From positions 372,001-436,000 of the forward strand of contig AP026152.1 in assembly GCA_030295235.1 (NCBI GenBank): DNA of 64,000 nt. Direction: 5' to 3'. Positions 10,121 through 23,806 of this stretch are shown piece after piece. The notes under the pieces were generated by a model. That model was not told where the DNA came from, searched no databases, and was given only the letters and a program-made list of their open reading frames with translations. The DNA is from Fistulifera solaris (Eukaryota). Both the position numbers and the translations under genes were made by a program. Position 1 is the stretch's first letter. Every line of letters starts with the position of its first letter.

Positions 10121-10413
10121 TGACGGAGCTGGTCGATGAAGGCGACGCCGACGAAGATGTTGCTCCTTCGGATTACTACGAAGACTAAAAACTAAACAAG
10201 GAGAAAACACGGAAAAAGGCAATAGTCGACAAATAATAAACTACATGTTATAGCTAAGACATTAAATGTTTTTGTATTCAATCGAAATAACTAAACGAGT
10301 TCATCTTTTAATTCAAAGTTTACAAACAATGACAATTTCAAAATAGCTGTTCAGAACGGTCACGTAATCCTTCGTATTCGAAGAAGAAACAATTCACTTT
10401 GCGATGAATGGGT

Positions 10414-10429
10414 GGAGGTAAGAACCTCC
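10414..10429 (-). promoter_or_regulatory. Histone mRNA 3' stem-loop (H1)
   Basis: Minus strand CAACC-GGAGGT-TCTT-ACCTCC-ACCCA, 34 nt after the H1 stop. Confidence 0.85.
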
Positions 10430-10463: not shown

Positions 10464-10987
10464 TTACTTCTTTTCCGCGGCAGGAGCGGCCTTTTTCTTG
10501 GGAGCCGTCTTCTTGGCGGCCGGCTTGGCCTTGGTGGCCGCCGCCTTTTTCGGAGCCGCGGGCTTCTTCGCTTTGGGTGCGGTAGCCTTCTTGGCGGCAG
10601 CCGGCTTTTTGGCCTTGGTGGCGGTCTTTTTGGGAGCCGCCGTCTTCTTGGCGGTCGTCGTCGCCTTTTTCTTGGGCTTGGTCGGCGCCTTCTTGGCCGT
10701 CGTCGTCTTCTTGGTGGCCGTTTCCTTCTTCTTGGGCGCTTCCGCAGCCTTCTTGGCGGTCGCCGTCGCCTTCTTTTGAAATCGGCCGAGAGCTTGTAGG
10801 AATTCTTGTTCTGAACGAATTCACCCGAAGCCACACCATTCTTCAAGGCTTGCAAGAACGTTGCGTTTTGCCACTTCTTATCTTTGGGCATTTTGTCCTG
10901 CATGGCCTTCTTGATGGCAATCATACTCGACCCATTGCGGTCTCCGAGGGTGGTAATGGCCGAAACAATTCCTGCTTTGTACGACAT
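10464..10987 (-). CDS. H1: Linker histone H1 (globular domain + K/A/P-rich tail); probable 5'-UTR intron 10999-11098; 1-nt frameshift at 10774-10777
   Basis: MSYKAGIVSAITTLGDRNGSSMIAIKK...SYKLSADFK winged-helix domain. Adding one A to an A4 run restores the KKATATAKK... tail ending at TAA 10464. Confidence 0.9.
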
Positions 10988-11746
10988 GATGTTACGTTCT
11001 GCAACAGGCACAACGCGGTCAGTCTAATGCTCAACTAATTACAAAAGACGTCACGGAGAATTCCACAGTCATCACTTGCTGCGACAAGAGGTACTTACAT
11101 GTTTGTTTTGAATCAATCAACTGCTGTAAATGTTGTTGCAATGCGATGCAAATCGGTTGCTTGCTTTGCAAAAACGAGTCGGCCAATCTCCGCCTGCGCC
11201 CGAATTTGAATCCTGCGCCAGCCTACCTGCGCGTAGAACGCTACGGCGTTGTACATACGGGAAAAGCTACAGGAGCTTCAGTACTGGATTACGAAAATTT
11301 GACTCATGTCCCAGCGCGTCCGTTGGTCGCGCCAGCATGATCGGCGTGAACGAATGACAATGATCAATGATGGCGTTGTCCTCGCAAGCGCAATGAGAAG
11401 CTTGCTTTGGCTTGCTCTTGCAGTCTCTTCAGATGATATTCATTCAGCATTGCAGAACGAACATGGCCTGCTGGATCGTGAGCCTTTAGGTTTGTTGTGG
11501 GTCGCCTGCTTCTGCAACTTGAAAGGCATTGCTCTAGTGACGCTAAGCGACAGCTACGAAGAAAAGTCTAGACTAGTTCAAAGGAATAGATTCCTAGAAA
11601 GCAATAGGTCATTATAATAAGAAACTACCGAACGCAATCTTTATCACCTGCATCGACATAGAAATCCGTGAAACAAAGCAAGATCAAGTTTGAACAGCCG
11701 AAACAAAAGGTCGTCGCATCCAAAAAAGGACTTTGTGTGTTTGGGT

Positions 11747-11762
11747 GGAGGTAAAAACCTCC
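11747..11762 (-). promoter_or_regulatory. Histone mRNA 3' stem-loop (H2B)
   Basis: Minus strand AAACC-GGAGGT-TTTT-ACCTCC-ACCCA, 36 nt after the stop. Confidence 0.85.
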
Positions 11763-11798
11763 GGTTTAAAAATCTACAGAGTAGACAAGGCAATAATC

Positions 11799-12155
11799 TT
11801 AAGCACTGCTGGAGAACTTGGTCACGGCCTTGGTTCCCTCGGAGACGGCGTGCTTGGCCAATTCACCAGGGAGCATGAGGCGGACGGCCGTCTGGATCTC
11901 GCGACTGCTGAGCGTGGCCTTCTTGCTGTAAGTAGAGAGCTTTCCGGCCTCGGTAGCAATGCGCTCGAAGATATCGTTGATGAAGGAGTTCATGATGGAC
12001 ATACCCTTCTTGGAGATACCGGTGTCGGGGTGGACCTGCTTGAGCACCTTGTAGATGTAAGAAGAGTAGGTTTCGGTACGCTTCTTGCTCTTTGTCTTGG
12101 CGCCAGCGGCCTTCTTGGGTGCCTTAGCAGATTGCTTGGAGGGAGTCTTAGCCAT
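11799..12155 (-). CDS. H2B: Histone H2B
   Basis: [23 protein letters not shown]...[16 protein letters not shown]. Confidence 0.98.
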
Positions 12156-12652
12156 GGTTGCGAAAGTTTGAGTTTGCGATAAACGAAGATGAATTCGAAT
12201 AATTGTGAGAAGTCTCTGCGTTGCGCTGCTGCGGTGCTTTTTGGAGCGGGCCGTGATGCAAGGAGCATTTGGGCCGGCGCACGCCAGCCGTCACACCGAC
12301 TGCTGGTACTCATTGTACGTACACGTTAAAAATGTACCAGCGACCTCGTACGTAAGCCTGAACGGTGTTTCTCGTACACAATTCAAACCGCGCCACATCG
12401 TCTTGCCGTTCTACGTCTTGCAATTTTGGGCGCATCGAACTGGTAGAATTTCTACGGAACGTACGAGTGTACGAGACCCTCGTAGACGCCGTGCAATTTC
12501 TACGACACTCTACAGAACGTCGGCCCCGGCTTGTTCTTCTCCGCCGCTTTCACACCATCGTTGCTTTGAACGCATTCGTCACAAAATCACAAGCAACCCT
12601 TGTTGACAGCTCGTTTTTACATTATCAAAACACAAACAAAACTACCATCACC

Positions 12653-13030
12653 ATGTCTGGAAAAGGAAAAGGAAAGGGAGGTCGCGGAGACAAGAAATCC
12701 ACCAGCAGCTCCTCCAAGGCCGGCTTGCAGTTCCCCGTCGGTCGTATCGGACGTTACTTGCGTCAAGGAAAGTACGCGACGCGTATGGGTGCCGGAGCTC
12801 CCGTCTACTTGGCCGCTGTGCTCGAGTACTTGTGTGCTGAAATCTTGGAGTTGGCCGGAAACGCCGCTCGTGACAACAAGAAGACTCGTATTGTTCCCCG
12901 TCACATCACTTTGGCCGTCAAGAACGATGAGGAATTGAACAAGTTGTTGGGAGGAGTCACCATTGCCTCGGGAGGTGTGTTGCCCAACATTCACGCTGTC
13001 TTGTTGCCCAAGAAGACTGTGACCAAATAA
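12653..13030 (+). CDS. H2A: Histone H2A (copy 1)
   Basis: [10 protein letters not shown]...[11 protein letters not shown]...[11 protein letters not shown] at 12653. Confidence 0.98.
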
Positions 13031-13094
13031 GCATCTTGACGTGTGCCGTTCTGACTGTTGGAGTCGAGCGTTTGCCTTGATTCTTTACCAAACC

Positions 13095-13110
13095 GGAAGT
13101 TTTAACTTCC
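13095..13110 (+). promoter_or_regulatory. Histone mRNA 3' stem-loop (H2A copy 1)
   Basis: AAACC-GGAAGT-TTTA-ACTTCC-ACCCA, 64 nt after the stop. Confidence 0.85.
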
Positions 13111-13543
13111 ACCCAAACCAACAAAGGACATCAGTCTTTCAAGGAAATTGAACTTTAACACCGTATCATAACTAGATAATATAGTCATTTGTTTATTCTT
13201 TCATTGTCATTTATTATTATTTGTTTTATCTTCTTGAGTGATTTCTATTCGTTTATAGTCTTTTCATTGTACGTACAGTACAGAAATTAAGGGTCGACAA
13301 TGCGTTCCTGCGCAAAGGATAGGAATAATAAACTTGAGTACCGTAAAGACATCATCTAAATTCAGTCATTTCGTCGGCACGAGCACACGACCCGTTGCGT
13401 GCCAACGGCGGACGATGCAGCGATGCGAGCAACAACAACAAATGCGGTGGCATGTATAAAAAGCAACAAAAACATCCGATGCGATCATTCCTTTCGTTTG
13501 TCTTGCTTAGATATTAAATTGAAGATAACCAAAGAATTGAATC

Positions 13544-22037: not shown

Positions 22038-22332
22038 GAGAGGGGGCGACGCGAAAAACGCCTTGCAGTCTTGTAAAATCACGTTGAATCTCAGCAGTCT
22101 TCTGGCTTGAAGAAGCAAGCACGTGTTTATGGTATACTTTAGCATAATGTTGAGCAATTAGTGATAACAATAGTTGGGGTTTGAGAACATTTTTTAATCG
22201 ATTATGACGTTGACACGGTAGCGGAGGTCCTTTTCGAATCAGTGAAAATGGAATCAGTTACAGAGTATTATTTTACTAGTATACGAAACGTAAGTTCCTC
22301 GAATTCAGAGCACGTGCTTTGTTGGTTTGGGT

Positions 22333-22348
22333 GGAAGTTAAAACTTCC
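22333..22348 (-). promoter_or_regulatory. Histone mRNA 3' stem-loop (H2A copy 2)
   Basis: Minus strand AAACC-GGAAGT-TTTA-ACTTCC-ACCCA, 55 nt after the stop. Confidence 0.85.
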
Positions 22349-22403
22349 GGTTTGGTAGGAAATCGAGGCAAACGCTCGACTTCATCAGGGCACGTCAAGA
22401 CGC

Positions 22404-22781
22404 TTATTTTGTGACAGTCTTCTTGGGCAACAAGACAGCGTGAATGTTGGGCAACACACCTCCCGAGGCGATGGTGACTCCTCCCAACAACTTGTTCAAT
22501 TCCTCATCGTTCTTGACGGCCAAAGTGATGTGACGGGGAACAATACGAGTCTTCTTGTTGTCACGAGCGGCGTTTCCGGCCAACTCCAAGATTTCCGCGC
22601 ACAAGTACTCGAGCACAGCGGCCAAGTAGACGGGAGCTCCGGCACCCATACGCGTCGCGTACTTTCCTTGACGCAAGTAACGTCCGATACGACCGACGGG
22701 GAACTGCAAGCCGGCCTTGGAGGAGCTGCTGGTGGATTTCTTGTCTCCGCGACCTCCCTTTCCTTTTCCTTTTCCAGACAT
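22404..22781 (-). CDS. H2A: Histone H2A (copy 2; same protein as copy 1)
   Basis: Translation identical to 12653-13030, in inverted orientation. Confidence 0.98.
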
Positions 22782-23081
22782 GGTGATGGTAGTTTTGTTT
22801 TTGTTTTGATAATGTAAAAACGAGCTGTCAACAAGGGTTGCTTGTGATTTTGTGATGCCGTCCTGGACGAGAAAAGCGCGAGAAGTTGCCGAGCCCGATT
22901 TTAAAAAGTGGCTTCTGTACATTTGCTACTGACAGCTACATACATAGGTGCTGGTACAGATGCTACAGGGCAATCTGCGCCACTGCCGTTCCTGTAAAGT
23001 TTATACCAGGGTCTACGTAAAAGTCATGTTGAAATATTGCACCATTCGCGCGCCGTACTTTTTTACGGGGGTTTCTCGTAG

Positions 23082-23588
<507 letters not shown>

Positions 23589-23628
23589 GTTCGTTACTCC
23601 TTTGCCTCGGTATGAGGTTATCCAAACC

Positions 23629-23644
23629 GGAGGTCTTTACCTCC
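23629..23644 (+). promoter_or_regulatory. Histone mRNA 3' stem-loop (H3)
   Basis: AAACC-GGAGGT-CTTT-ACCTCC-ACCCA, 40 nt after the stop. Confidence 0.85.
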
Positions 23645-23806
23645 ACCCAAACAAACAAAGACACATTTTGCCTTGATTCGGAAACTTGTTGTATTTGGTA
23701 TTTCGAAACTTCTTTTGGTCTCTACTACTCAGTATCGTCCTTTATTATTTCTTTTAGCTTTTAGTAGACTTACCTGGTGCTTGTAATCATTATTATTTCT
23801 GCCAAT

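What the first reader, a model, noticed from the sequence alone, without database searches (positions are those of the whole stretch)
13111..13126. Fixed-distance CAAAG after each stem-loop: candidate histone downstream element implying a U7-like snRNA
Seen: CAAAG starts 12 nt after the stem in H2B (11731-11735), both H2A (13122-13126; 22317-22321) and H3 (23656-23660), and 13 nt after it in H1 (10397-10401), although the spacers differ (ACCCAAACACA, ACCCAAACCAA, ACCCAAACAAA, ACCCATTCATCG). Similarity between the two H2A copies stops immediately after CAAAG. Established: in animals a purine-rich HDE (core AAAGAG) about 10-15 nt downstream pairs with U7 snRNA to direct cleavage. Inference: there is a U7-like RNA with a 5' CUUUG segment, or a protein reader, which to my knowledge is not characterised in diatoms.
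Basis: partly seen in the sequence, partly recalled or inferred. Interest (0 to 1): 0.75.

Follow-up and report, generated by a model that had tools for sequence, protein, structure and literature searches.

The report
Conserved CAAAG box after histone hairpins
In this diatom, every histone gene ends in the animal-type RNA hairpin followed at a fixed distance by an invariant CAAAG box, which sits where animals have the U7 docking signal; this suggests animal-style histone message cutting outside animals and makes it testable.

Summary
All five histone genes in the window (H1, H2B, two H2A, H3) end in a 6-bp/4-nt hairpin followed by ACCCA, a 6-nt spacer (7 nt in H1) and CAAAG. A shared in-register 5-mer arose in 0 of 20000 (35-nt) and 4 of 20000 (15-nt) shuffles. 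A metagenome scan with a hairpin pattern that left out CAAAG found three more histone hairpins. An H2B in a second organism and an H4 in a third, with a different stem, have CAAAG at +12. An intron-containing H3 does not. That makes 6 of 7 non-redundant hairpins. None of 163 non-histone hairpin+ACCCA sites has the box. Conservation is complete at +1..+5 and +12..+16 and falls to background at +17. In the alignment to Rfam RF00032, CAAAG lies on the A-rich block of the largely animal-derived consensus, where the histone downstream element begins. The element is therefore real, histone-specific and HDE-like in position. What reads it is untested. No genome or RNA reads were available and no U7 candidate was found. 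The main rival is that CAAAG marks the end of the mature RNA. I found no description of this box in diatoms. I rate it a new variant of a known kind.

The parts
10397..10429 (-). H1 3' signal: stem-loop GGAGGT-TCTT-ACCTCC (10429-10414), ACCCA (10413-10409), 7-nt spacer, CAAAG (10401-10397). It lies 34 nt after the true stop codon.
   Evidence: RF00032 28.9 bits
10465..10987 (-). Histone H1 gene. The globular domain and the Lys/Ala/Pro-rich tail are in different frames, so there is an apparent 1-nt frame change.
   Evidence: Pfam Linker_histone E 8e-15; three-frame translation
11731..11762 (-). H2B 3' signal: stem-loop GGAGGT-TTTT-ACCTCC, ACCCA, spacer AACACA, CAAAG (11735-11731)
   Evidence: RF00032 28.3 bits; 35 of 37 identical to L022 H2B while the flanks are random
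11799..12155 (-). Histone H2B gene
12653..13030 (+). Histone H2A gene, copy a
13095..13126 (+). H2A copy a 3' signal: stem-loop GGAAGT-TTTA-ACTTCC (13095-13110), ACCCA (13111-13115), spacer AACCAA, CAAAG (13122-13126). The finding's coordinates are 13111-13126.
22317..22348 (-). H2A copy b 3' signal, identical to copy a from 5 nt before the stem through CAAAG (22321-22317)
22404..22781 (-). Histone H2A gene, copy b (same protein as copy a; 5 synonymous differences in 378 nt)
23178..23588 (+). Histone H3 gene
23629..23660 (+). H3 3' signal: stem-loop GGAGGT-CTTT-ACCTCC, ACCCA, spacer AACAAA, CAAAG (23656-23660)
   Evidence: RF00032 29.5 bits

Best explanation
The 16 nt after each histone hairpin, ACCCA-AnCAnA-CAAAG, together with the hairpin form a bipartite RNA-level 3'-end processing signal. 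The hairpin is presumably bound by an SLBP-type protein. The invariant CAAAG box, held 6 (once 7) nt beyond ACCCA, acts as the counterpart of the animal histone downstream element (HDE). It anchors a second factor at a fixed distance, so that a CPSF73-type nuclease cuts after ACCCA by a ruler mechanism. The most likely reader is a small U7-like Sm-class RNA that pairs through a 5' CUUUG (compare the UCUUU box of animal U7), helped by contacts with the hairpin-bound protein. Shown here: the element exists, is histone-specific, is conserved across organisms and histone classes, is mostly single-stranded in predicted folds, and occupies the HDE position.
For: (1) Six of 7 non-redundant histone hairpins have CAAAG at +12 (five) or +13 (one). 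These are 4 of 4 in the window, plus L022 H2B and L009 H4. The L009 H4 hairpin has a different stem (GGAGCT/AGCTCC) and was not selected by the search pattern. (2) Chance is excluded: 0 of 20000 and 4 of 20000 shuffles. With a background of 0.0016 per position, 2 of 3 new hairpins having the box at +12/+13 has p of about 3e-5 (my arithmetic). (3) Specificity: 0 of 163 non-histone hairpin+ACCCA sites in 858 kb of fetched loci have the box. CAAAG is not enriched after 19 non-histone ORFs (7 in 3724 positions). (4) Footprint: information is 2.0 bits at +1..+5, 1.17 at +6..+11, 2.0 at +12..+16 and 0.62 at +17..+26. Window H2B and L022 H2B are 35 of 37 identical from -5 to +16, with both flanks no better than shuffled. 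(5) Position: in the cmscan alignment to RF00032 the box falls on the consensus block 'caaaa' of 'acaaaaAaa'. (6) The hairpin forms in 7 of 7 folds, and I saw no recurrent pairing of the spacer or box across them. (7) Literature: U7 has a universally conserved UCUUU box (PMC5054213, passages). LSM10 and LSM11 homologues are reported in stramenopiles (bioRxiv 10.64898/2026.10.14.759114, passages).
Against: No U7-like RNA was found. There was no RF00066 hit in the window at E<=10. The descriptor scan gave 7 hits: 4 are just the antisense of the histone 3' ends, and 3 are within the range of control anchors (1-4). The genome is not held. Only 5 nt are invariant, which is short for an RNA duplex, and the neighbouring spacer shows A/C changes that wobble pairing cannot absorb. 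Conservation stops abruptly right after CAAAG. The two H2A paralogues are homologous only from about 75 nt before the ATG to CAAAG, a transcript-sized unit that fits an RNA ending at CAAAG better than one ending at ACCCA. One of 7 hairpins (the three-intron H3 of L009/L044) lacks the box. Only three organisms were sampled, and the taxon of L009 is unresolved.
Confidence: 0.4

Rival explanations
1. CAAAG marks the 3' boundary of the RNA itself. Cleavage occurs at or just after CAAAG (for example after its CA, or a few nt beyond the G), so the whole 16-nt ACCCA...CAAAG tail stays on the mRNA. The tail may then be trimmed or polyadenylated. It is conserved because it is part of the mature message, not because it is a downstream anchor.
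For: Conservation ends exactly at CAAAG in both the paralogue and the orthologue comparisons. The H2A paralogues share homology only from about -75 of the ATG to CAAAG, with 5 synonymous differences in 378 nt and unrelated flanks. This is a transcript-sized unit, as expected from RNA-mediated duplication or conversion. T-rich runs tend to follow within about 5-10 nt (consensus line), as with downstream elements of ordinary cleavage sites. Recalled, from no call: diatom histone transcripts are routinely detected in oligo-dT-based work.
Against: ACCCA is invariant exactly as in animals, where it is the retained 3' flank. The box sits at the animal HDE offset. CAAAG is not a general 3'-end motif in this window. 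There is no A-rich trace after the box in H2A copy b, which argues against a poly(A)-primed retrocopy.
Confidence: 0.27
2. CAAAG is an HDE-like downstream anchor as in the best explanation, but it is read by a sequence-specific RNA-binding protein (a subunit or partner of the cleavage complex) and not by a U7-like RNA.
For: The invariant core is only 5-6 nt (A-CAAAG) with sharp edges and no extended complementarity, which is typical of a protein site. No U7 has been recognised outside animals except one predicted case in Rozella (bioRxiv 10.64898/2026.10.14.759114, passages). Physarum has the hairpin, a purine-rich 'HDE', SLBP and LSm10/11, but no U7 was found there (PMC8600027, passages).
Against: LSM10 and LSM11, the U7-specific Sm-like proteins in animals, are reported in stramenopiles. 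The box shares AAAG with the complement of the universal U7 UCUUU box. U7 RNAs are short and fast-evolving, so failing to find one says little (PMC5054213).
Confidence: 0.2
3. CAAAG is a DNA-level element, such as a binding site for an HMG-box-type factor or a transcription pause/termination signal, that happens to lie after the hairpin. The (A/T)(A/T)CAAAG HMG-box consensus is recalled and comes from no call.
For: AACAAAG is present in H2A and H3.
Against: Strict strand specificity and fixed spacing relative to an RNA hairpin. H2B, H1, L022 and L009 do not have the AACAAAG form. There is no enrichment elsewhere.
Confidence: 0.05
4. There is no function. The box is a relic of common ancestry or gene conversion among histone 3' ends, or a chance word in an A/C-rich spacer.
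For: The spacer is A/C-rich. Within the window, three of four spacers begin AAAC, so some shared ancestry of the 3' modules is possible.
Against: The shuffle tests. Recurrence after a different stem, in another histone class and in another organism. The flanks are randomised on both sides of a 35 of 37 identical core in the H2B orthologues.
Confidence: 0.03

Closest known systems
Metazoan replication-dependent histone pre-mRNA 3' signal: stem-loop (Rfam RF00032) + ACCCA + histone downstream element (HDE) paired with U7 snRNA
   Same: 6-bp stem, 4-nt U-rich loop, A-rich 5' flank, invariant ACCCA, placement 34-64 nt after the stop codon. A purine-rich box lies at the offset where the RF00032 consensus becomes A-rich. 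The box shares AAAG with the complement of the U7 UCUUU box.
   Different: The stem sequence is GGAGGU/GGAAGU rather than GGCUCU, and no hairpin reaches the Rfam gathering score (28.3-29.5 bits against 34; the two H2A hairpins were not reported even at E<=10). The box is a strictly invariant 5-mer with nothing conserved beyond it. No U7, SLBP, LSM10/11, cleavage site or poly(A) status could be tested for this organism.
Sea urchin histone spacer element CAAGAAAGA, a few nucleotides after ACCA (recalled from the Birnstiel-laboratory literature, not seen in any call)
   Same: A short conserved C-A-A-(A/G)-rich box lies a few nucleotides after the post-hairpin ACC(C)A. This is the case that led to the U7 pairing model.
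   Different: It is a 9-mer in sea urchins and a 5-mer here. I could not check the exact spacing because the paper is not held and a word search gave only unrelated primers.
Non-animal histone stem-loops with loosely defined purine-rich 'HDEs' (Physarum, PMC8600027; pan-eukaryote survey, bioRxiv 10.64898/2026.10.14.759114)
   Same: A hairpin followed by a purine-containing sequence in a protist, with SLBP and LSm10/11 homologues but no recognised U7.
   Different: Those HDE calls rest on purine richness, or on the words AAA/AAGA anywhere downstream. Here the element is a defined word at a fixed offset with cross-gene and cross-organism conservation. The survey calls stramenopile stem-loops further downstream and less conserved, whereas these are close to the stop codon and highly uniform.

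Membership tests
Histone 3' UTR stem-loop (Rfam RF00032) | 6-bp stem with G-C at the second pair, 4-nt loop with U at position 3, U-A closing pair | tested here: met
   All 5 window hairpins and the 3 distinct relatives. Loop position 1 is U in 4 of 5 window hairpins and C in H3.
Histone 3' UTR stem-loop (Rfam RF00032) | A-rich 5' flank and ACCCA 3' flank, located shortly after a histone stop codon | tested here: met
   AAACC/CAACC before the stem and ACCCA after it in all hairpins. Stop-to-stem distances are 34, 36, 64, 55 and 40 nt.
Histone 3' UTR stem-loop (Rfam RF00032) | Score at or above Rfam's gathering threshold (34 bits) | tested here: not met
   0 hits at gathering. H3 29.5, H1 28.9 and H2B 28.3 bits, with E 2e-5 to 6e-4. 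The H2A hairpins were not listed at E<=10. These are divergent members by curated score but clear members by architecture and context.
U7 snRNP-dependent histone 3' processing (HDE/U7 system) | Conserved purine-rich element at a fixed short distance downstream of the hairpin | tested here: met
   CAAAG at +12/+13 in 6 of 7 non-redundant hairpins. It aligns to the A-rich block of the RF00032 consensus.
U7 snRNP-dependent histone 3' processing (HDE/U7 system) | A U7 snRNA: 5' segment complementary to the HDE, Sm site of the RUUUNUCYNG type, 3' hairpin | tested here: inconclusive
   Only the 64-kb window could be searched. There was no RF00066 hit at E<=10 and the descriptor hits were at chance level. 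No genome is held.
U7 snRNP-dependent histone 3' processing (HDE/U7 system) | LSM10, LSM11, FLASH and SLBP encoded by the organism | not testable with these tools
   None is in the window (Pfam scan of 39 ORFs), there is no genome, and I had no permitted query sequences. The literature reports LSM10/11 in stramenopiles without naming diatoms.
U7 snRNP-dependent histone 3' processing (HDE/U7 system) | Cleavage after ACCCA giving non-polyadenylated mRNA | not testable with these tools

The most novel reading that the evidence does not exclude
Diatoms have a true U7-type snRNP whose RNA docks by CUUUG on the CAAAG box. U7-guided, ruler-type cleavage of histone pre-mRNAs would then not be an animal invention. 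It would have been present in the common ancestor of stramenopiles and opisthokonts, close to the last eukaryotic common ancestor. The invariant box gives an exact search key for the first non-opisthokont U7 RNA.
Probability: 0.35. Interest if true: 0.8.

Novelty: new variant of a known kind. Interest (0 to 1): 0.6.

Why it matters
Whether U7-guided histone mRNA processing exists outside animals is a long-standing open question. Hairpins, SLBP and now LSM10/LSM11 homologues are reported widely, but apart from one predicted Rozella candidate I saw no U7 RNA reported outside animals and no precisely defined downstream element. HDE calls in protists rest on vague purine richness. A strictly invariant, fixed-distance CAAAG box in diatoms turns the question into concrete experiments in a transformable model group. 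One can map the 3' ends, mutate or move five bases, and look for a small Sm-class RNA carrying CUUUG. There is also a practical point. Because these hairpins score below Rfam's threshold, automated annotation will miss them, and poly(A)-selected diatom transcriptomes may misreport histone expression if the messages are not polyadenylated.

Tried and rejected
- Whole genome: none is held for this window, so no genome-wide survey of histone genes, U7, SLBP or LSM10/11 was possible.
- RNA evidence: the look-up of sequencing runs listed 4 coded runs from one study, kept as contigs only, with no RNA holder listed.
- Metagenome scan: 117 stretches, of which only 3 contigs carry histone genes (L009, L022, L044). 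The rest are chance matches, mostly on contigs that look bacterial.
- Genome-contig scan (18 stretches) and viral-contig scan (75 stretches): no histone hairpin.
- Earlier notes of this scan: nothing for this genome or sequence. A word search gave one parallel lead in a green alga.
- ESM Atlas: it supports a diatom origin for the window but did not resolve the taxon of L009.
- Cis pairing: folds of seven 3' regions showed no recurrent pairing of CAAAG with upstream sequence, so I rejected the idea that the box is part of a larger RNA structure.
- Literature searches for SLBP, U7, HDE or non-polyadenylated histone mRNA together with diatoms found no description of this element. Davila Lopez & Samuelsson 2008 and Strub et al. 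1984 are not held. A search for the sea-urchin word gave only primers.
- Two searches failed on term format.
- The first pattern search was mis-registered and found only 2 of the 5 sites. It was replaced by the script.

Full report
**What is there.**
- The window is from a diatom-like eukaryote. The nearest Atlas cluster of its KefB-type antiporter scores 0.99, and its commonest phylum is Bacillariophyta.
- It carries five histone genes: H1(-), H2B(-), H2A(+), a second H2A(-) and H3(+) (ORFs; Pfam). There is no H4 in the window.
- A generic scan for a 6-bp stem, 4-nt loop and ACCCA finds a canonical histone-type hairpin after each gene and no other convincing site.
- In sense orientation all five read AACC-GGARGT-NNTN-ACYTCC-ACCCA. 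A spacer of 6 nt (7 nt in H1) follows, then CAAAG.
- The hairpins lie 34-64 nt after the stop codons. For H1 this holds only when the Lys-rich tail frame is used, because the listed ORF runs through the hairpin in a wrong frame.

**Is it more than chance?**
- I counted the duplicated H2A once. A 5-mer shared in register (+/-1) by the four flanks arose in 0 of 20000 shuffles of the 35 nt after ACCCA.
- It arose in 4 of 20000 shuffles when only the A/C-rich first 15 nt were shuffled.
- CAAAG has a background frequency of 0.0016 per position.
- It is not enriched in the 200 nt after 19 long non-histone ORFs (7 in 3724 positions). It is therefore not a general 3'-end word in this genome.

**Independent replication.**
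- I scanned the metagenome collection with a hairpin+ACCCA pattern that deliberately left out the box. Of 117 stretches, nearly all are chance matches, mostly on contigs that look bacterial. tblastn finds histone genes on only three contigs.
- L022 carries an H2B that is 93% identical in protein to the window's. Its hairpin is followed by ACCCAAGCACA-CAAAG, so the box is again at +12.
- From -5 to +16 the two H2B signals are 35 of 37 identical. The 3' UTR before them and the 60 nt after them are no more alike than shuffled sequence, and the coding regions are 305 of 360 identical.
- L009 carries a divergent H3/H4 pair. The H4 hairpin has a different stem (GGAGCT/AGCTCC) and was not what the pattern matched. 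It is followed by ACCCAATCATA-CAAAG, again at +12.
- The H3 on L009 (the same gene is on L044) has three introns. It differs from the window H3 at one of 121 aligned residues. It has the hairpin and ACCCA but no CAAAG (ACCCACGAAACATTGC).
- In total, 6 of 7 non-redundant hairpins carry the box. As raw copies this is 7 of 9.
- As a negative control, 167 hairpin+ACCCA sites occur in all 210 fetched loci (858 kb). Only the two histone sites carry CAAAG at +12/+13, and none of the 163 sites on contigs without histone genes does.
- Scans of the prokaryote-genome and viral collections added nothing.

**Anatomy of the element.**
- Information content is as follows for the six box-bearing flanks, with H1 brought into register:

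| Region | Bits |
|---|---|
| -5..-1 | 1.74 |
| each stem arm | 1.78 |
| +1..+5 (ACCCA) | 2.0 |
| +6..+11 | 1.17 |
| +12..+16 (CAAAG) | 2.0 |
| +17..+26 | 0.62 |
| beyond +26 | 0.50 |

- The last two values are at the small-sample baseline.
- The consensus is ACCCA-AnCAnA-CAAAG, with C at +8 also invariant.
- The hairpin forms in 7 of 7 single-sequence folds. I saw no recurrent pairing of the spacer or box across them.
- The strict strand and distance relation to an RNA hairpin points to an RNA-level function.

**Relation to the animal signal.**
- No window hairpin reaches Rfam's gathering score for RF00032.
- With E-value reporting, H3, H1 and H2B score 29.5, 28.9 and 28.3 bits against a threshold of 34. 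The H2A hairpins are not listed.
- In those alignments the diatom CAAAG falls on positions 33-37 ('caaaa') of the consensus block 'acaaaaAaa'. That is where the largely animal-derived consensus turns A-rich after the hairpin, which is the start of the histone downstream element.
- Marz et al. (PMC5054213, passages) state that the histone-binding region of U7 contains a universally conserved UCUUU box. Its complement AAAGA shares AAAG with the diatom box.
- I recall, but could not check, that sea-urchin histone genes carry CAAGAAAGA a few nucleotides after ACCA.

**What reads it?** This could not be tested.
- No genome is held.
- The window has no RF00066 hit at E<=10, and none of the 39 ORFs scanned against Pfam is an SLBP or an LSm protein.
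- A descriptor scan (CUUUG, Sm-like site, hairpin) gave 7 hits. Four are simply the antisense of the histone 3' ends. Three are within the range of scrambled-anchor controls, which gave 1-4.
- From the literature, a 2026 survey (bioRxiv 10.64898/2026.10.14.759114) reports LSM10 and LSM11 homologues in stramenopiles, naming Ectocarpus. I read the abstract, sections 5, 10 and 27, part 1 of section 15, and passages. The supplements were closed.
- That survey reports only one predicted U7-like RNA outside animals, in Rozella. It defines HDEs merely as AAA or AAGA downstream, and it does not contain the word diatom.
- Physarum shows the same situation: hairpin, purine-rich 'HDE', SLBP and LSm10/11, but no U7 found (PMC8600027, passages).

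**The main rival.**
- The abrupt end of conservation at CAAAG can also mean that the RNA ends there.
- The two H2A copies are nearly identical from about 75 nt before the ATG through the coding region (5 synonymous differences in 378 nt). Their 3' UTRs are diverged in patches and include a 9-nt indel. They are identical for the 42 nt up to CAAAG and unrelated outside these limits.
- Homology that excludes the promoter and stops at CAAAG looks like a transcript-sized unit. This modestly favours an RNA that includes the box.
- Against this stand the invariant ACCCA, which is the retained flank in animals, and the HDE-like offset.
- End mapping on non-poly(A)-selected RNA would settle it.

**Verdict.**
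- The element is real and histone-specific, and it is HDE-like in position and composition.
- Whether it is read by a U7-like RNA (my best guess, 0.4), by a protein (0.2), or marks the RNA end (0.27) remains open.
- My searches found no description of it in diatoms.
- I rate it a new variant of a known kind, with interest 0.6, because it gives an exact and testable handle on whether U7-type processing exists outside animals.

Noticed in passing
window 10465-10987 (-): The H1 gene changes frame. The globular domain (Linker_histone, up to about ...KLSADFK) is in one frame. The Lys/Ala/Pro-rich tail that ends ...AAPAAEKK* is in another. The ORF as listed instead reads an Arg/Pro-rich tail straight through the hairpin. 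This is probably a 1-nt indel or assembly error in an A-run.
   Followed up: partly
window 11786-11793(-), 13072-13079(+), 22364-22371(-), 23602-23609(+), 23668-23675(+): A second shared word, TTGCCTYG, lies on the sense strand in the 3' UTRs of H2B, both H2A copies and H3, 15-23 nt before the stem, and again 7 nt after the H3 CAAAG. The window-wide count is unremarkable (7 against 4.7 expected), but the placement is. It is absent from H1 and from the L022 and L009 H4 3' UTRs.
   Followed up: partly
window 12578-13129 and 22314-22856: The two H2A copies are homologous only from about 75 nt upstream of the ATG to CAAAG (+ about 3 nt), with unrelated promoters and downstream DNA. This is a transcript-sized duplication or conversion unit. 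Copy b is paired divergently with H3 rather than H2B.
   Followed up: partly
L009 2372-3295 (-) and L044: An H3 gene with three introns, 120 of 121 aligned residues identical to the window H3, carries the hairpin and ACCCA but lacks CAAAG. It may be a replication-independent variant processed differently.
   Followed up: partly
window 10397-10429, 11731-11762, 13095-13126, 22317-22348, 23629-23660: None of the five hairpins reaches the RF00032 gathering score, and the two H2A hairpins are not reported even at E<=10. Rfam-based annotation would therefore miss diatom histone stem-loops.
   Followed up: yes
window 11731-11775(+), 13082-13126(-), 22317-22361(+), 23616-23660(-): The antisense of four of the five histone 3' ends (all but H1) reads CUUUG, then a G/U-rich GUUUGGG stretch, then a hairpin. 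This superficially fits a naive U7 descriptor. It follows trivially from complementarity and is noted only as a curiosity.
   Followed up: no
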